From NCBI GenBank assembly GCA_947503965.1, contig CANNFU010000004.1, forward strand, positions 364,654-428,653: DNA of 64,000 nucleotides. Reading direction: 5' to 3'. The first letter of the stretch is position 1. Every line of letters begins with the position of its first letter. This DNA comes from an uncultured Rhodobacteraceae bacterium (lineage in GTDB: Bacteria > Pseudomonadota > Alphaproteobacteria > Rhodobacterales > Rhodobacteraceae). A program made the translations under genes and the position numbers. The notes beneath the pieces are model-generated. The model was not told the origin of the DNA, searched no databases, and was given only the letters and a program-made list of their open reading frames with translations. Below are positions 5,341 to 20,968 of this stretch, piece after piece.

Positions 5341-6900
5341 TTAACGCAGCCAGATTTCAACGCGGCGATTGCTTTCGCGACCATCTGCAGTCTCGTTACA
5401 ACCCACAGGTGCAAGAGGTCCATAAGATGATACCGATATACGGCCCGCAAGCACGTCACCGCCGATCGCAGCGACAAGCGCATCGCGCAAGGATGTGGCG
5501 CGCAACAATGCCAGACGTTCATTCAGGTCAAAACGCCCCACATCATCTGTAAAGCCGATGATCAGAACCTCGCGGTTACGCGCCTCTGCGCTGTTGAGGA
5601 AGTCAACCATACGCTGAACGTCTTCCAGCGATTTGTTGTCCAACCGGGCCGAACCAGAGGTAAAGCGGAAGGTCGTCGACAAACGGTCCGCAGTTGCCAG
5701 ATCGCGCGAGAAGTTCTGCACCAGACCCAGCGTGGCACCGGTGCTGGCCGACAGGATGGCAGACGTCATCCGCGTACCCTGCAAGCTGATCGGCTCGCTC
5801 ACAACGACCTGATCCACATATCCTGCATTGGCAATCAGCGGCTGCGCCTCTGGTGAAGTCAGGAATTCAATGAAATCGTTCCCGGTGGAGGACTGCACCG
5901 CATCACCGGTATATGCAAACACACGACGGCTGAGCGGGTATTCCTCTGCCTTGATTGCAAAGTCAGTTGCGTAGGCCAGCGGACCGCATGTCTGACGGAT
6001 CGGCAGAACCTCACCCTGATTGGCTTCGGACAGGCTTGTCACAGTGATTGCGGCTTCGTTCGCAGCCACTGCGGCAGCTGCCGCGGCTTCGCTTTCGGCG
6101 CGTTCGGCACTGCGGCGCAGACGCACACGGTTGGGGTCAAGCACCAGTTCAGTAAAGGCCTGATCCAAGGAAGAGCCTTCCGCGGGCAACAGCATCTGGA
6201 TTGGCAGGTTGTCACCGCCCAGTTCGGACCAGTTTCTGATGCGGCCCGACGCGATCAGCGCCAGTTCTTCCAATGACACAGAACGTACGGGATTGTTGGG
6301 ATGCACCAGCGGTACGATCGCGTCCAGCGCGATAATGCGTTCACGGCTCAGATCACGCAGGTCGGTACCACCAGCGGCAACGACGCCTTCGGCGACAGCG
6401 GCAGGGACCGGAACCTTGGTGATGGCCATGTCGACCTGGTTCGTCACCAGTTGCGAAAACGCAGCGTCGGTCGGTGCCAATGTCACATCAACTTTGCCGG
6501 CATTCGTATTTGTCTGGAAATTCTGCAAATCGATACGGGCAACCACACCATTGGCACCCGGTGCCGACAGACCTGTCAGGTCCCGCGAGGTCGCAAACCC
6601 GTTCACCATCGCCTGCAACAGACTAGCGGTCTTCGGTTCATTGACAGCGACCGCCAGCTCAAGATTTGTGGTCAGTTGCGGGCAGGCCGCACCACTGCAA
6701 TCTGTTGCCGAACGCGACAGGCGCAATTGCCCGATATCGGTATCCAGCACGAAAACCTCATCATCGAATGACACGAGTTCACCGGTAATCGAGACTGCGT
6801 TGTCTTTACTTGAGATTGTAACCTGGTCCGCAAATGTTGCCAGCGGTGTCGCGGCAAAACAGGCAGCCAAGGTCATTTTTTGTCGAAGTGTCTTCATCAA
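5341..6900 (-). CDS. phosphate-binding (PstS-like PBP) domain fused to a C-terminal OmpA-like peptidoglycan-binding domain
   Basis: 519 aa. The N-terminal signal peptide is followed by a PBP-like domain, and the C-terminus carries the OmpA_C signature (TDDVGRFDLNERLALLRATSLRDALV....NRRVEIWL). Confidence 0.7.
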   Translation of the reverse strand: MMKTLRQKMTLAACFAATPLATFADQVTISSKDNAVSITGELVSFDDEVFVLDTDIGQLRLSRSATDCSGAACPQLTTNLELAVAVNEPKTASLLQAMVNGFATSRDLTGLSAPGANGVVARIDLQNFQTNTNAGKVDVTLAPTDAAFSQLVTNQVDMAITKVPVPAAVAEGVVAAGGTDLRDLSRERIIALDAIVPLVHPNNPVRSVSLEELALIASGRIRNWSELGGDNLPIQMLLPAEGSSLDQAFTELVLDPNRVRLRRSAERAESEAAAAAAVAANEAAITVTSLSEANQGEVLPIRQTCGPLAYATDFAIKAEEYPLSRRVFAYTGDAVQSSTGNDFIEFLTSPEAQPLIANAGYVDQVVVSEPISLQGTRMTSAILSASTGATLGLVQNFSRDLATADRLSTTFRFTSGSARLDNKSLEDVQRMVDFLNSAEARNREVLIIGFTDDVGRFDLNERLALLRATSLRDALVAAIGGDVLAGRISVSSYGPLAPVGCNETADGRESNRRVEIWLR

Positions 6901-18625: not shown

Positions 18626-18918
18626 GCATCAAACCGGCACAGATCACCACGAAACGACAGGTCATACATATCGGATTCTGATCCCGCCGCGCGATTGCCG
18701 AGGCAAAAGGGAAAGTGTTGTCGAATTCGCCACTTTATCGGCACCATTTTGTCACGAAAGGCAAACCGCGGCCTCAGATGCCCTGAATGCCGCCGCGGCA
18801 TTCCTTTACGTTTCTCCGATTTATTGTATTTATCGCCTAAAATTCGACCAAATCTATGCTTATGCCTGCCGAGTGGCCGCCTCTCCGGCTTCGGTATTAA
18901 CGGTGAAGGAAAACTTTC

Positions 18919-20628
18919 ATGAGATCTGTGCTCATTGTCGCGGTTGCTTTTTTGACAGCGCTCACATTCTTTTTGGCTTCTTGGCTGACACCGCAAAGTG
19001 CCGAAGGGCTTGCAGCGGACCAGATTGAAGAGGCGCAGGCCGCGTTGCAGGCGCAGCTGGCCGATGCAACCGCCCGAAGCGCCGAGGAAATCGCAACCTT
19101 GCGCAACGCATCCGAGACGCTCGATGCCGAGGTGGCGACGCTGACCGCGTTGGTACAGTCCGTCACCACGGAACGCGATGCGTTGGTTCAGGAACTCGCC
19201 GATGCAAACGAAGCGCTTGCAACACAGACCGATACCGACAGTGATTTGATGTCCCGGATCACCGAATTGGAAGCCGAATTAGCCGCCAGCGAAGGCCGCT
19301 TGGCCGCTGCGCAAGGCACGATCACTACATTAATGGAAACATTTGATGCGAACACGGCTGAAATTACCTCGCTGACCGAACAACTGGCCGCTTTGCAACA
19401 AGAGGCAGACACGACCGCAGCGCGCATTGCGGAACTTGAAGACACAACCGTTGCTGCAGCCCCCGGCGAAACAGACGAACAGGTCAGCCTGCTTGAAGCC
19501 CAAATCGCCGAGCGTGACGCCGCACTTGAAGAACTGCAGGGCACAGTCGCGGCATTGACCGCCGACCTGGAAGCTGCAGCAGCAGCGCAGCCAGAGCCGA
19601 CAGCAGACGTATCAGCCGAGGTTGAGACGCTGACGGCCGATCTTGCAGAGCGTGACACGCTGATTGCGACATTGGAAACCCAGATCGCCGATGCGCAAAC
19701 CGCAAGCGAGGCGACCGCGGCCCAGATCACCGAACTGACCGCCGCCATCGCAGAACGCGATGACGCGATTGCCGCAATGGAAGCCGCCAACGCAGAAGCG
19801 GATTCGGCAGACGAACAGGTCGCTGACCTGACCGCCACATTGGCCGAACGTGACGCCGCGATCGCATCGCTTCAGACCGCATTGGAAGAAGCAACCGCAA
19901 GCGCCGCCGCCGAAGATGCAACGGTAACTGACAGCGAAGCCGCAGTCGCCGCTTTGAACACACAGGTTGCAGAATTGACCGAGCAGGTGACCGAGCAGAC
20001 CAGAACAATTCAGAACCTGCGTTTGGGTCTTGGTGATCCGGATATGCCGCCATCGGAACTGGCCGAGGTCTGCGGCGCACGCGCAACCGAAATCCTGAAT
20101 GCCTCGCAAATCACGTTTGATACAGGCACCACATCGATCAATAACGCATCTGCCGAGACCCTGGCCGAACTCCGCGACATCGCCATTGGCTGCTCAAACG
20201 AAGATCTGATCATCGAAATTGGTGGCCACACCGATAGCCAGGGTGCCGAAGAAAGCAACCAGGCCATCAGTGAAGCACGCGCACAGGCTGTTTTGAACTT
20301 CATGGTCGACGGTGGCGTTTCCGCCGAAGACATGCGCGCAGTCGGTTTTGGCGAAACACAGCCCATCGCGACCAATGACACACGCGATGGTCGCGCTGCA
20401 AACCGCCGTATCACGTTTGAATGGCAGGTTCGCCAGACAGAGCCGGAGGTCGTCGAAGATACAGGAACCGAAGCGGTAGAAGAGAGCGCACCAGAAGCGT
20501 CCACAGAGGAGGGCGCATCCGAAGCGCCAGCCGAAGAGACCGATACCGCGACCACCGAAGAGCCTGCATCAGAAGATGCCGCCGACACAGCAGCCGATGC
20601 TGCCGAAACCAACACCGTAGACGAGTAG
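18919..20628 (+). CDS. membrane-anchored coiled-coil protein with C-terminal OmpA-like peptidoglycan-binding domain and acidic tail
   Basis: 569 aa with an N-terminal TM helix and about 10 tandem ~33-aa Ala/Glu-rich repeats (LTAxLAERDxxIAxLE). It carries an OmpA_C motif (IEIGGHTDSQGAEESNQAISEARAQAV...NRRITFEW) and a D/E/T-rich C-terminal tail. Confidence 0.75.
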   Translation: MRSVLIVAVAFLTALTFFLASWLTPQSAEGLAADQIEEAQAALQAQLADATARSAEEIATLRNASETLDAEVATLTALVQSVTTERDALVQELADANEALATQTDTDSDLMSRITELEAELAASEGRLAAAQGTITTLMETFDANTAEITSLTEQLAALQQEADTTAARIAELEDTTVAAAPGETDEQVSLLEAQIAERDAALEELQGTVAALTADLEAAAAAQPEPTADVSAEVETLTADLAERDTLIATLETQIADAQTASEATAAQITELTAAIAERDDAIAAMEAANAEADSADEQVADLTATLAERDAAIASLQTALEEATASAAAEDATVTDSEAAVAALNTQVAELTEQVTEQTRTIQNLRLGLGDPDMPPSELAEVCGARATEILNASQITFDTGTTSINNASAETLAELRDIAIGCSNEDLIIEIGGHTDSQGAEESNQAISEARAQAVLNFMVDGGVSAEDMRAVGFGETQPIATNDTRDGRAANRRITFEWQVRQTEPEVVEDTGTEAVEESAPEASTEEGASEAPAEETDTATTEEPASEDAADTAADAAETNTVDE

Positions 20629-20638
20629 GACTAATCTG

Positions 20639-20905
20639 ATGTCACCATTATTGCTCCAAATCTTCGCCTTCATGCTTGTGACTTTCTTGCTGGGCATTGG
20701 CCTGGGCTGGCTGGTCTGGCGGTTTGGCCGCGCATCTGATCAGGCTCTCGATACGATGAAAACAGAGATCGACTTTTGGCGCAGCAGCCTGGAACAGTGC
20801 CGCCACGAGCGCGATAATGAACAAAAGGCCGTTGCTGTCTTGCATGAGGAAAAGAAAATGCTGAAGCGGCGTATCGCTTCACTTGAGGCACGCCCCAAGA
20901 CATAG
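20639..20905 (+). CDS. small membrane-anchored coiled-coil protein (hypothetical partner of the upstream OmpA-domain protein)
   Basis: 88 aa, with an N-terminal TM helix followed by a charged helix. Its start is 11 nt after the upstream stop, and it is followed by a strong terminator. Confidence 0.5.
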   Translation: MSPLLLQIFAFMLVTFLLGIGLGWLVWRFGRASDQALDTMKTEIDFWRSSLEQCRHERDNEQKAVAVLHEEKKMLKRRIASLEARPKT

Positions 20906-20928
20906 GCACGCGCTGGTCTTATCCAAAG

Positions 20929-20968
20929 ACAAACGGGCCCGACTGTGACGCAGTCGGGCCCGTTTGTT
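20929..20968 (+). terminator. Rho-independent terminator (15-bp perfect stem, T-tract)
   Basis: Hairpin AAACGGGCCCGACTG-tgacg-CAGTCGGGCCCGTTT followed by GTT. Confidence 0.7.

What the first reader, a model, noticed from the sequence alone, without database searches (positions are those of the whole stretch)
18919..20968. Repeat-rich coiled-coil OmpA-domain protein with acidic tail and a co-transcribed mini membrane partner
The 569-aa protein has an N-terminal TM anchor, about 10 tandem ~33-aa Ala/Glu-rich repeats (recurring LTAxLAERDxxIAxLE), a C-terminal OmpA_C domain and a D/E/T-rich tail. An 88-aa TM plus helix protein starts 11 nt downstream, and a strong terminator follows. The architecture resembles a periplasm-spanning ruler or tether linking inner membrane to peptidoglycan. 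Repeat number could vary between strains.
Basis: seen in the sequence. Interest (0 to 1): 0.5.

Follow-up and report, generated by a model that had tools for sequence, protein, structure and literature searches.

The report
Inner-membrane coiled-coil cell-wall anchor with mini partner
This is a real two-gene unit, seen so far only in marine Roseobacter-group bacteria, encoding a long, very acidic helical stalk protein that probably ties the inner membrane to the cell wall, plus a tiny, highly conserved membrane partner; it is an uncharacterised variant of a familiar kind of envelope protein, and its role as a periplasmic ruler is not supported.

Summary
There is a 569-aa ORF (18919-20628) and an 88-aa ORF starting 10 nt after it. 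A 19-bp hairpin (-40 kcal/mol) follows the second ORF.

**The large protein:**
- It has one N-terminal transmembrane segment and a roughly 340-residue helical stalk with strong 3.5-residue periodicity.
- It carries a canonical OmpA-like domain, and the Asp/Arg pair I take to be the peptidoglycan-binding residues is invariant.
- It ends in a disordered acidic tail.

**What is overstated.** "About 10 tandem 33-aa repeats" does not hold. Only five clear copies of an LTAxLAERDxxIAxLE-type motif exist. They are irregularly spaced, and there is no DNA-level repeat that could drive strain-level variation.

**The gene pair.** It is conserved in about 20 Roseobacteraceae loci with unrelated flanks. A conserved upstream element travels with it.

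**The small protein.** It is the most constrained part (dN 0.02-0.07, against 0.33 for the stalk). It is one long helix: a transmembrane segment with a GxxxG motif, then a basic part that is probably cytoplasmic.

**Ruler idea.** Stalk length varies from 308 to 421 residues through heptad-sized indels. Fully extended it would be about 50 nm, longer than a typical periplasm is wide. That fits a flexible tether, not a ruler.

**Status.** No characterised homologue was found, and the function is inferred, not shown. The protein is also lysine-free.

The parts
18834..18855 (+). Conserved upstream element CGCCTAAAATTCGACCAAATCT, 64-85 nt before the start codon. It is probably a promoter or operator belonging to the operon.
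   Evidence: It is 100% identical in the window and its three closest relatives, although the protein stalk is only 54-57% identical. It is recognisable in all 11 short-form loci, whose flanking genes differ. It occurs once in the window, with 0 expected. There is no Rfam match. Its function was not determined.
18906..18910 (+). Shine-Dalgarno sequence AAGGA of the large gene.
   Evidence: It lies 8 nt before the ATG. The A-G-G core is conserved in nearly all of the 11 aligned loci.
18919..20628 (+). Large gene, 569 aa: a bitopic OmpA-like protein with a coiled-coil stalk. pI is about 4, the net charge of the ectodomain is -97, and there are no lysines.
   Evidence: Purifying selection acts on every region.
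18925..18987 (+). N-terminal transmembrane segment (about residues 3-23). It is probably an uncleaved signal-anchor, with the N-terminus in the cytoplasm.
   Evidence: Kyte-Doolittle 19-residue mean 2.36. It is 93% identical to Cognatiyoonia, and T13, F17 and A20 are invariant in 19 homologues. R2 precedes it and an acidic flank follows. It has no lipobox cysteine and no Asp. No dedicated signal-peptide predictor was available.
19009..20043 (+). Periplasmic helical stalk (residues 31-375). The AlphaFold helices run to residue 176, then 186-220, 229-330 and 337-368, with breaks at the Pro/Gly sites.
   Evidence: 3.55-residue periodicity. AlphaFold secondary structure. Composition is 26% Ala, 73 D+E against 12 Arg and 0 Lys. 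Indels against relatives are mostly 7, 14 or 35 residues.
19135..19212 (+). Motif copy 1 (residues 73-98), ATLTALVQSVTTERDALVQELADANE.
   Evidence: hmmsearch i-E-value 3e-11. This model was built from these same five copies, so for them the score is circular. Independent support is the shuffle test and matches in relatives.
19474..19551 (+). Motif copy 2 (residues 186-211), DEQVSLLEAQIAERDAALEELQGTVA.
   Evidence: i-E-value 6.5e-13; same caveat as for copy 1.
19612..19689 (+). Motif copy 3 (residues 232-257), SAEVETLTADLAERDTLIATLETQIA.
   Evidence: i-E-value 1.7e-11; same caveat as for copy 1.
19717..19794 (+). Motif copy 4 (residues 267-292), AAQITELTAAIAERDDAIAAMEAANA.
   Evidence: i-E-value 3.1e-11; same caveat as for copy 1.
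19810..19887 (+). Motif copy 5 (residues 298-323), DEQVADLTATLAERDAAIASLQTALE.
   Evidence: i-E-value 2.4e-12; same caveat as for copy 1.
20050..20430 (+). OmpA-like peptidoglycan-binding domain with its N-terminal helix (residues 378-504). C385 and C425 are conserved, as is the motif GGHTDSQG...NQAISEARA, which contains D439 and R454.
   Evidence: Pfam PF00691 at 74.2 bits. PDB sequence hits at 2e-15. Foldseek TM-score 0.83 to 5wtp, with 3td5 also matched. D439, R454, C385 and C425 are invariant in 19 homologues.
20431..20625 (+). Disordered acidic tail (residues 505-569).
   Evidence: pLDDT 40-45. 24 D+E of 69. It is the fastest-evolving part, with dN 0.54-0.62. Its length is 6-98 residues in orthologues, and it is absent from long-form relatives.
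20639..20905 (+). Small partner gene, 88 aa. It forms one continuous helix: a transmembrane segment (about residues 4-27) with an invariant G19xxxG23 motif, then a basic 55-residue helix with a conserved FWRSxLEQCR motif. pI is 9.4.
   Evidence: It is 89-95% identical in relatives whose large protein is 59-63% identical. dN is 0.02-0.07. The Shine-Dalgarno AGGA overlaps the stop codon of the large gene.
20928..20968 (+). Hairpin that ends the operon: a 19-bp perfect stem, a 3-nt loop, then UUUGUU.
   Evidence: -40.4 kcal/mol, z = -9.5. Relatives have a hairpin of different sequence in the same place, there followed by a T-run.

Best explanation
The region is a two-gene operon for a wall-to-membrane tether.

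**Large protein**
- It is inserted in the inner membrane by one uncleaved N-terminal helix, with the N-terminus in the cytoplasm (inferred).
- Its remaining roughly 545 residues lie in the periplasm (inferred). They comprise a segmented alpha-helical coiled-coil stalk of about 340 residues, an OmpA-like domain and a floppy acidic tail.
- The stalk is extremely acidic and free of lysine (shown).
- The OmpA-like domain would bind the peptide stem of peptidoglycan non-covalently through the conserved Asp439/Arg454 pocket. The fold and residues are shown; binding is inferred.

**Small protein**
- It is a single long helix with the opposite topology (inferred). A few residues face outward, then comes a transmembrane segment with a GxxxG packing motif, then a basic 55-residue helix in the cytoplasm.

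**The complex**
- The two proteins most likely associate through their conserved transmembrane helices (inferred, not tested).
- The complex would connect the sacculus to the inner membrane and to something on its cytoplasmic face.
- The stalk tolerates insertions and deletions of whole heptads, and its length is not conserved. It therefore acts as a flexible spacer or tether, not as a length standard.
- The cellular process served, whether envelope integrity, division or positioning, is unknown.
For: **Domain architecture**
- One transmembrane segment in each protein.
- Heptad periodicity in the stalk, and four helices with an OmpA fold and a disordered tail in the AlphaFold model.
- OmpA membership by Pfam, PDB sequence search and Foldseek. 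The Asp/Arg pair and two cysteines are invariant.

**Operon structure**
- A 10-nt gap, with the Shine-Dalgarno sequence overlapping the stop codon. There is a hairpin only after gene 2.

**Linkage**
- The small gene lies directly downstream of an OmpA stalk gene in 16 of 18 genome loci. The same holds in the loci reached through homologues (L002, L004, L007, L008, plus L001, L005 and L006, which repeat genome-scan contigs). Flanking genes differ.
- A conserved upstream element travels with the pair.

**Constraint**
- dN is 0.02-0.07 for the partner, 0.03-0.19 for the large protein's transmembrane segment and 0.10 for OmpA.
- dN is 0.33-0.35 for the stalk and 0.54-0.62 for the tail.
- Stalk indels of 7, 7, 14, 35, 7 and 7 residues keep the heptad phase.

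**Cytoplasmic location of the partner's helix**
- Arg28 and Arg31 follow the transmembrane segment directly, and the helix carries a net positive charge.

**Periplasmic exposure of the large protein**
- Its acidic, lysine-poor composition resembles that of the other exported proteins in the window.
Against: - No experiment and no characterised homologue supports any function.
- Whether the N-terminal segment is cleaved was not tested with a dedicated predictor.
- Pairing of the two transmembrane helices is inferred only from co-conservation. No multimer model could be run.
- Fully extended, the stalk (about 47-51 nm) is much longer than my estimate of what is needed to reach the wall from the inner membrane. 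It must therefore fold back, lie obliquely or pass through the wall. The AlphaFold pTM of 0.33 gives no reliable arrangement.
- dS is saturated, so dN/dS ratios are rough.
- Co-transcription is inferred from DNA, not from RNA data.
Confidence: 0.5

Rival explanations
1. Scaffold or landmark of the division or polar apparatus. The complex marks a particular site on the wall, such as the septum or a pole, and recruits other proteins through the acidic stalk or tail and the cytoplasmic helix. This would resemble bitopic wall-binding divisome proteins (FtsN, DamX) or polar organisers (HubP, FimV). It refines the tether model and does not exclude it.
For: - The partner has a weak, N-terminal-only resemblance to the Z-ring-associated protein ZapG/YhcB: NCBIfam E = 3.7e-4 and Pfam E = 0.013. 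JGI gave homologues that label.
- The partner is extremely conserved, which suggests several binding surfaces.
- The acidic, repeat-bearing region next to a wall-binding domain recalls HubP and FimV (my own knowledge).
Against: - The ZapG scores are far below the curated cutoffs: 20 against 150 bits, and 16 against 33.5 bits.
- No division or polarity genes lie nearby, and the flanks differ in every genome.
- In HubP and FimV the acidic region is cytoplasmic, whereas here it must be on the same side as the OmpA domain.
Confidence: 0.2
2. Exported protein that is not anchored in the inner membrane. The N-terminal segment would be a cleaved signal peptide. Alternatively it would insert into the outer membrane, as the helix of Thermotoga Omp-alpha does. 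The rod would then be a soluble or outer-membrane-tethered periplasmic strut bound to the wall.
For: - The N-terminal segment has the n-h-c layout of a signal peptide, with Arg2 followed by a hydrophobic core.
- Omp-alpha is a precedent for a wall-binding domain joined to a 50-nm coiled coil and one membrane helix (my own knowledge; the Thermotogales paper is listed).
Against: - The hydrophobic run is about 20 residues long. It is followed by no consistent small-x-small cleavage motif across orthologues: ASW-L, AAQ-L, AAR-L, ASV-L.
- The segment is conserved well beyond what a signal peptide needs. It is 93% identical to Cognatiyoonia and has invariant T13, F17 and A20, even in distant BON-containing forms.
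- AlphaFold models it as continuous with the stalk helix.
- The conserved partner, with its own transmembrane helix, is best explained by an intramembrane contact.
Confidence: 0.12
3. Periplasmic ruler: the stalk length sets the distance between the inner membrane and the wall (or the outer membrane), as Lpp length sets periplasmic width in E. coli.
For: A long heptad-periodic rod lies between a membrane anchor and a wall-binding domain. Indels preserve heptads.
Against: - Stalk length ranges from 308 to 421 residues among short-form orthologues. It differs by 35-60 residues (about 5-9 nm) between genera whose partner protein is 89-95% identical.
- There are three or four flexible breaks.
- The extended length exceeds my estimate of periplasmic dimensions.
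Confidence: 0.05
4. Wall anchor (stator-like part) of a larger machine encoded elsewhere, such as a flagellar, pilus or secretion apparatus, in the manner of MotB, TagL or MotY.
For: Generic OmpA-domain similarity to MotB, MotD, MotY, TssL and ZorB models.
Against: - All of those scores are far below the family cutoffs and cover only the OmpA domain.
- The transmembrane helix has no Asp, unlike the proton-conducting MotB helix.
- No MotA, ExbB or TolQ-like gene, and no machine gene, is adjacent in any locus.
Confidence: 0.08

Closest known systems
OmpA-like (OmpA_C, PF00691) peptidoglycan-binding domain proteins anchored in the inner membrane, such as MotB/PomB and TagL
   Same: A single N-terminal transmembrane helix, a periplasmic linker and a C-terminal OmpA-like domain with the conserved Asp/Arg pocket.
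   Different: - The linker here is a coiled-coil stalk of about 340 residues, not a short plug or linker.
- There is no Asp in the transmembrane helix and no MotA-type partner.
- The partner is an 88-aa single-helix protein.
- An acidic tail follows the domain.
NCBIfam PRK09039 'peptidoglycan-binding protein' models (NF006542, NF006543, NF006544)
   Same: The overall layout matches: a coiled-coil region followed by an OmpA domain. NF006544 aligns over residues 191-500 of the window protein, against profile positions 43-338 of 343.
   Different: - Scores are 49-80 bits against curated cutoffs of 305-388, so this is not the same family.
- I found no published function for those models either, so they explain nothing further.
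Mycobacterium tuberculosis ArfA (Rv0899/OmpATb): membrane anchor, BON-like domain and OmpA-like domain, encoded with small membrane proteins
   Same: - The long-form relatives of this protein have the domain order transmembrane helix, BON, then OmpA, and a small membrane partner downstream.
- The OmpA domain matches Rv0899 structures at 3e-12 to 5e-12.
   Different: - The window protein has no BON domain.
- All forms in this family carry a long coiled coil that ArfA lacks.
- The operon comparison with arfB and arfC rests on my own knowledge and was not tested.
Thermotoga Omp-alpha and E. coli Lpp (coiled-coil connectors between a membrane and the wall)
   Same: A rod-shaped coiled coil links one membrane to peptidoglycan.
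   Different: - Those anchor the outer membrane, and they use an SLH domain or a covalent C-terminal lysine.
- The window protein has an OmpA domain, no lipobox and no lysine at all.
- Its length is not conserved.
ZapG/YhcB (DUF1043), for the small partner
   Same: An N-terminal transmembrane helix followed by a cytoplasmic helix, and similarity around the ...G..W/MRFG juxtamembrane stretch.
   Different: - It has 88 aa against about 130.
- Scores are 20.4 bits against a cutoff of 150 (NCBIfam), and 16 against 33.5 (Pfam).
- It is always encoded with an OmpA stalk protein.

Membership tests
OmpA-like domain (Pfam PF00691) | Profile score above the curated gathering threshold | tested here: met
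   74.2 bits against 27.2, with residues 399-496 covering profile positions 1-98 of 98.
OmpA-like domain (Pfam PF00691) | Alpha/beta fold of solved OmpA C-terminal domains | tested here: met
   Foldseek against the PDB: 5wtp TM-score 0.83 and rmsd 2.3 A. Pal, OprF, TagL and the A. baumannii OmpA-peptidoglycan-peptide complex 3td5 are also matched. Model pLDDT in the domain is 75-90.
OmpA-like domain (Pfam PF00691) | Conserved Asp and Arg that hold the diaminopimelate of the peptide stem (GHTD ... LSxxRA motif) | tested here: met
   GGHTDSQG...NQAISEARA is present. D439 and R454 are invariant in 19 homologues and align with the motif in 7rjj and 5wtp. Their equivalence to the A. baumannii binding residues rests on my own knowledge.
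OmpA-like domain (Pfam PF00691) | Actual binding to peptidoglycan | not testable with these tools
   This needs a sacculus co-sedimentation assay.
MotB/PomB-type stator subunit | Conserved Asp in the transmembrane helix and an adjacent MotA-type four-helix partner | tested here: not met
   The transmembrane sequence VLIVAVAFLTALTFFLASWL has no Asp. No such gene is adjacent in the window or in the related loci. NCBIfam MotB and MotD scores are 42-64 bits against cutoffs of 250-300.
Pal / YiaD / YfiB OmpA-family lipoproteins | Lipobox with an acylated Cys after the signal peptide, and a family score above the cutoff | tested here: not met
   There is no Cys in the first 384 residues. YiaD scores 98.5 against 175, Pal 62 against 125 and YfiB 70.5 against 128.
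PRK09039 peptidoglycan-binding protein (NF006542-4) | Score above the curated NCBIfam cutoff | tested here: not met
   80.3 against 305, 61.2 against 388 and 49.2 against 362 bits.
ArfA-like (membrane anchor, BON, OmpA) | BON domain between the anchor and the OmpA domain | tested here: not met
   There is no BON hit in window residues 1-227. BON is found at 35-40 bits (cutoff 27) in the long-form relatives L021, L022, L023 and L026.
Lpp-type periplasmic ruler | [quoted passage not shown] | tested here: not met
   Rod length is 308-421 residues among orthologues. There is no lipobox, and 0 Lys in 569 residues.
ZapG/YhcB (DUF1043), small partner | Score above the curated cutoff, over the full-length profile | tested here: not met
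   NCBIfam NF008672 scores 20.4 against 150 bits and covers only profile positions 4-54 of 133. Pfam PF06295 scores 16 against 33.5.
Known anti-phage defence systems (for example Zorya ZorB) | Match to a full defence-protein model together with the system's partner genes | tested here: not met
   Only the OmpA part matches ZorB models (35-38 bits), alongside generic coiled-coil hits. The small protein has no hit. No ZorA, ZorC or ZorD-like genes are nearby.
Coiled coil | Heptad (3.5-residue) hydrophobic periodicity sustained over long helices | tested here: met
   The power at 3.55 residues is 17 sd above shuffles. AlphaFold gives helices of 146, 35, 102 and 32 residues. Indels occur in multiples of 7. 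The oligomeric state and the actual supercoiling were not testable.

The most novel reading that the evidence does not exclude
The pair is a trans-envelope connector, found here only in Roseobacteraceae, whose key element is the nearly invariant cytoplasmic mini-helix.

In long-form relatives this helix carries the same enigmatic domain found on NADH dehydrogenase subunit E and on protein-O of the photosynthetic reaction-centre complex. The complex would mechanically or spatially couple a cytoplasmic or inner-membrane process to the cell wall. Candidates are respiratory or photosynthetic membrane complexes, or the nucleoid.

The lysine-free, heptad-elastic acidic stalk would then be a specialised periplasmic element and not a passive spacer.
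Probability: 0.12. Interest if true: 0.6.

Novelty: new variant of a known kind. Interest (0 to 1): 0.35.

Why it matters
The Roseobacter group is a major marine bacterial lineage, and much less is known about its envelope than about that of E. coli. As I understand it, Alphaproteobacteria lack Lpp. How their inner membrane, wall and outer membrane are held together is therefore still being worked out.

This is a conserved, self-contained two-gene module with a clear wall-binding domain. It also has a stalk of adjustable length and a very strongly constrained 88-residue partner. That makes it a tractable candidate for such a link.

The value here is modest. The work defines the module, its two forms and its conserved parts. 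It removes the ruler and variable-repeat ideas. It gives concrete residues and constructs to test.

Tried and rejected
- **Exact-sequence look-up** of the large protein found nothing on record. The source genome is therefore not in that collection. The nearest named relatives are Cognatiyoonia sp. IB215446 and IB215182 and the MAG J06616_17.
- **DNA tandem repeats.** Tandem Repeats Finder found only two trivial arrays. Direct repeats are short and diverged. A slippage or recombination basis for repeat-number variation is rejected.
- **RgsD of Sinorhizobium.** I recalled it as a possible wall-binding analogue. The paper shows that it has no OmpA domain and a different fold (PMC7327166), so it is rejected.
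- **Defence system (Zorya-like).** Only generic domain hits were found, so this is rejected.
- **Structured RNA or riboswitch** in the leader or the intergenic regions. No Rfam match was found, even at E = 1.
- **Sigma-70 promoter scan.** None was found in the region. The conserved upstream element fits neither the CtrA (TTAA-N7-TTAA) pattern nor the EcfG pattern when inspected by eye, and it remains unassigned.
- **Foldseek against the AlphaFold database** could not be run because the library was unavailable. The PDB search returned only OmpA domains, so nothing is learned about the stalk.
- **Literature searches** for an inner-membrane-anchored coiled-coil OmpA protein in Alphaproteobacteria or Rhodobacterales found no characterised homologue. 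A search for COG3743 found two papers that mention the term; neither was read.
- **L024 and L025**, two weak hits to the partner in the genome scan. L024 looks like a degraded, frameshifted copy. L025 matches only the transmembrane part. Neither was counted.
Full report
**1. What is in the sequence**

ORF 18919-20628 (+) encodes 569 aa, and ORF 20639-20905 (+) encodes 88 aa. The two are separated by 10 nt. An AGGA Shine-Dalgarno sequence overlaps the TAG stop of the first gene, and that layout is conserved in relatives.

No hairpin lies between the genes. After the second gene there is a 19-bp perfect hairpin at 20928-20968 (-40.4 kcal/mol, z = -9.5), followed by UUUGUU. The simple terminator scan missed it because the T-run is weak. 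Close relatives have a hairpin of different sequence at the same place, with a proper T-run.

The neighbours are unrelated in function. They are trpA, an FMN-dependent dehydrogenase and a divergent MFS transporter upstream, and ribosomal protein L25 and peptidyl-tRNA hydrolase downstream.

**2. The large protein**

*Membrane segment and stalk.* One hydrophobic segment lies at the extreme N-terminus (Kyte-Doolittle 19-residue mean 2.36), and nothing else exceeds 0.8. Residues 31-375 are 26% Ala, 13% Thr, 13% Glu and 11% Leu, with 73 acidic residues against 12 Arg. The pattern of hydrophobic residues has a sharp 3.55-residue period. Its power is 4.54 against 0.58 +/- 0.23 in 1000 shuffles, none of which reaches it. 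The best heptad register stays fixed over 57-168, 169-210, 211-280 and 281-364.

*Structure model.* AlphaFold2 with 19 homologues (mean pLDDT 73, pTM 0.33) gives helices 2-176, 186-220, 229-330 and 337-368. It gives an alpha/beta domain at 378-504 and a disordered tail with pLDDT about 43. The breaks coincide with the few Pro and Gly residues.

*OmpA domain.* The C-terminal domain is a standard OmpA-like domain.
- Pfam scores 74.2 bits against a cutoff of 27.2.
- PDB sequence hits reach 2e-15.
- Foldseek gives a TM-score of 0.83 and rmsd 2.3 A to 5wtp. It also matches Pal, OprF, TagL and the A. baumannii domain solved with a peptidoglycan peptide.
- The motif GGHTDSQG...NQAISEARA is intact. 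D439, R454 and the two cysteines C385 and C425 are invariant in 19 homologues.

**3. The repeats**

The recurring motif is real. ERD occurs five times against 0.13 expected from composition (0 of 20000 shuffles), and the longer pattern occurs four times against none.

A profile built from it finds only five significant copies, starting at residues 73, 186, 232, 267 and 298. The rest are fragments with E-values of 0.2 to 5. Spacings are 113, 46, 35 and 31 residues, so the "33-aa tandem" description fits only the last three or four copies.

There is no repeat at the DNA level. Direct repeats are at most 34 nt long and 62-87% identical, so nothing would drive rapid copy-number change between strains. 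Across species the number of significant copies ranges from 0 to 6. The same motif, xRDxxIxxL, recurs in distant relatives, where it can form 14-residue (two-heptad) tandem units.

**4. Relatives and linkage**

The nearest large-protein homologues in a collection of 5.8 billion sequences are only 45-67% identical. The small protein has homologues at 86-95%.

A scan of one genome per species found 18 loci, all in Roseobacteraceae: Cognatiyoonia, Yoonia, Loktanella, Sulfitobacter, Roseicyclus, and unnamed Rhodobacteraceae and Pseudomonadota MAGs. In 16 of them a large ORF with an OmpA domain ends 9-50 nt upstream of the small gene. The same holds in the loci reached through homologous proteins, some of which are the same contigs as in the genome scan. 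The genes flanking the pair differ from genome to genome, so the two genes move as a unit.

A 22-nt element, CGCCTAAAATTCGACCAAATCT (window 18834-18855), is identical in the four closest genomes. It is recognisable in all 11 short-form loci aligned. It is unique in the window and has no Rfam match. It is most likely the module's own promoter or operator.

**5. Two forms of the module**

*Long form* (Sulfitobacter, Roseicyclus, Sedimentitalea and others):
- The large protein has a transmembrane helix, a BON domain, a stalk and an OmpA domain, with no tail.
- The partner has 170-210 aa.
- BON scores 35-40 bits, above the cutoff of 27.
- The partner's C-terminal 80 residues match protein-O of the Dinoroseobacter shibae RC-LH1 complex (8yy9_O) and a 41-kDa complex I subunit (9wqv_a), at 1.6e-30 and 4e-30.
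- The authors of the RC-LH1 structure note that this domain also ends NADH dehydrogenase subunit E, and that its function is obscure (PMC12079452).

*Short form* (the window; Yoonia, Loktanella, Cognatiyoonia):
- It lacks BON.
- It has an acidic tail of 6-98 residues.
- Its partner has 81-104 aa and lacks that domain.

In all 16 loci the form of the large protein matches the form of its partner.

**6. Constraint**

These figures compare the window with its three closest relatives. dS is saturated, so only dN is compared.

| Region | dN |
|---|---|
| Small partner | 0.02-0.07 |
| Transmembrane helix of the large protein | 0.03-0.19 |
| OmpA domain | 0.10 |
| Stalk | 0.33-0.35 |
| Tail | 0.54-0.62 |

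Identity by region tells the same story: transmembrane helix 63-93%, stalk 46-57%, OmpA 76-84% and tail 32-38%.

Gaps in the stalk alignment are mostly 7, 14 or 35 residues long. Gaps that are not multiples of 7 cluster at the Pro/Gly breaks and at the distal Ala-rich part. The aligner knows nothing about heptads, so this is independent evidence for a coiled coil that changes length in whole heptads.

**7. The small partner**

AlphaFold gives one continuous helix, residues 3-83, at pLDDT 83. Residues 4-27 are hydrophobic, and L18, G19, L22, G23, W24 and W27 are invariant or nearly so, forming a GxxxG motif. Arg28 and Arg31 follow directly. The remainder is basic (14 K+R against 11 D+E; pI 9.4).

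By the positive-inside rule the helix is cytoplasmic. The long-form domain shared with a cytoplasmic complex I subunit points the same way. Both are inferences.

The conserved FWRSxLEQCR motif places the nearly invariant Cys54 at a core heptad position. The resemblance to ZapG/YhcB is confined to the N-terminal 50 residues and falls far below the family cutoffs.

**8. Mechanism**

The best-supported reading has three parts.
- The large protein is an inner-membrane protein whose ectodomain binds the wall.
- The small protein has the opposite orientation.
- The two meet in the membrane.

This would give a connection from the sacculus through the inner membrane to the cytoplasmic face.

Shown: the domain content, the helical periodicity, the operon layout, the linkage and the pattern of constraint.

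Inferred: the topology, the absence of signal-peptide cleavage, wall binding, the contact between the proteins and the oligomeric state.

The ruler idea is weak, for two reasons. Stalk length varies from 308 to 421 residues. It also differs by 35-60 residues between genera whose partner is 89-95% identical. At about 0.15 nm per residue, the four helices would add up to roughly 47 nm, and the whole stalk to roughly 51 nm. Both exceed the inner-membrane-to-wall distance as I estimate it from published envelope dimensions. The stalk must therefore bend at its breaks, lie obliquely or cross the wall.

**9. Comparison with known systems**

The protein is a member of the OmpA-like domain superfamily. 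It is not a member of the MotB, Pal/YiaD/YfiB, PRK09039 or ArfA families, nor of any defence family.

In function it most resembles bitopic wall-binding inner-membrane proteins. Geometrically it recalls coiled-coil connectors such as Omp-alpha or Lpp.

No paper describing this module was found. Public annotation calls it "OmpA family protein" and "hypothetical protein".

**10. Verdict**

The module is real and conserved, and it is under purifying selection. It is a new variant of a familiar kind. Interest is moderate to low at 0.35. It offers a tidy, testable envelope module in an ecologically important group. Nothing here contradicts current understanding, and the function is still inferred.

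Noticed in passing
window 18919-20628: The 569-aa protein contains no lysine at all but has 22 arginines. Its four closest relatives (594, 616, 609 and 680 aa) also have none, although their stalks are only about 55% identical. Further relatives have 1-5, and distant ones 9-29. Nine neighbouring genes average 3.5% Lys, which gives a naive P of about 2e-9. The other exported proteins in the window are also Lys-poor (1.5-2.6%). It may therefore be an extreme of salt-exposed periplasmic composition, or selection against amine-based cross-linking.
   Followed up: partly
window 18834-18855: The 22-nt element CGCCTAAAATTCGACCAAATCT upstream of the large gene is better conserved than the coding sequence, and it travels with the operon into different genomic contexts. 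It matches no consensus I could assign.
   Followed up: partly
L008 6967-7491; P0139, P0173, P0213 and about 100 others: Long-form partners end in an approximately 80-residue domain also found on protein-O of the D. shibae RC-LH1 complex (8yy9_O), on a 41-kDa complex I subunit (9wqv_a) and on NuoE C-termini. JGI labels it 'flap endonuclease-1-like 5' DNA nuclease'. Its function is called obscure in PMC12079452.
   Followed up: partly
window 20611-20625 and the C-termini of P0002-P0007, L013, L016 and L019: Many orthologues end their otherwise unconserved acidic tail with x-V-(D/N/E/A)-E, for example TVDE, TVNE, PVDE and TVEE. This may be a short C-terminal binding motif. The closest relatives (L009-L012) do not share it.
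   Followed up: no
window 5341-6900 (-): A second OmpA-domain protein of 519 aa, which looks by eye like a periplasmic solute-binding-type region fused to a C-terminal OmpA-like domain. It is unrelated to the finding apart from that domain.
   Followed up: no
window 18785-18803: A terminator-like GC-rich hairpin, GAATGCCGCCGCGGCATTC, followed by CTTTACGTTT, lies in the divergent intergenic region between the MFS gene and the large gene. The CTTTAC part is conserved in relatives. Its role is unknown.
   Followed up: no
L024 2900-4400: In one Sulfitobacter assembly the locus appears degraded. It holds fragments of a stalk-like ORF and a partial partner match, with no intact OmpA ORF. It may be a pseudogene or an assembly error.
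   Followed up: no
L010 2140-3990: Cognatiyoonia sp. IB215446 carries a 35-residue insertion in the stalk made of short internal repeats (ETLSAEFTTVSTELGTVSAEFETMSAELETVTAQ). This is an example of stalk lengthening by local duplication in multiples of seven.
   Followed up: partly
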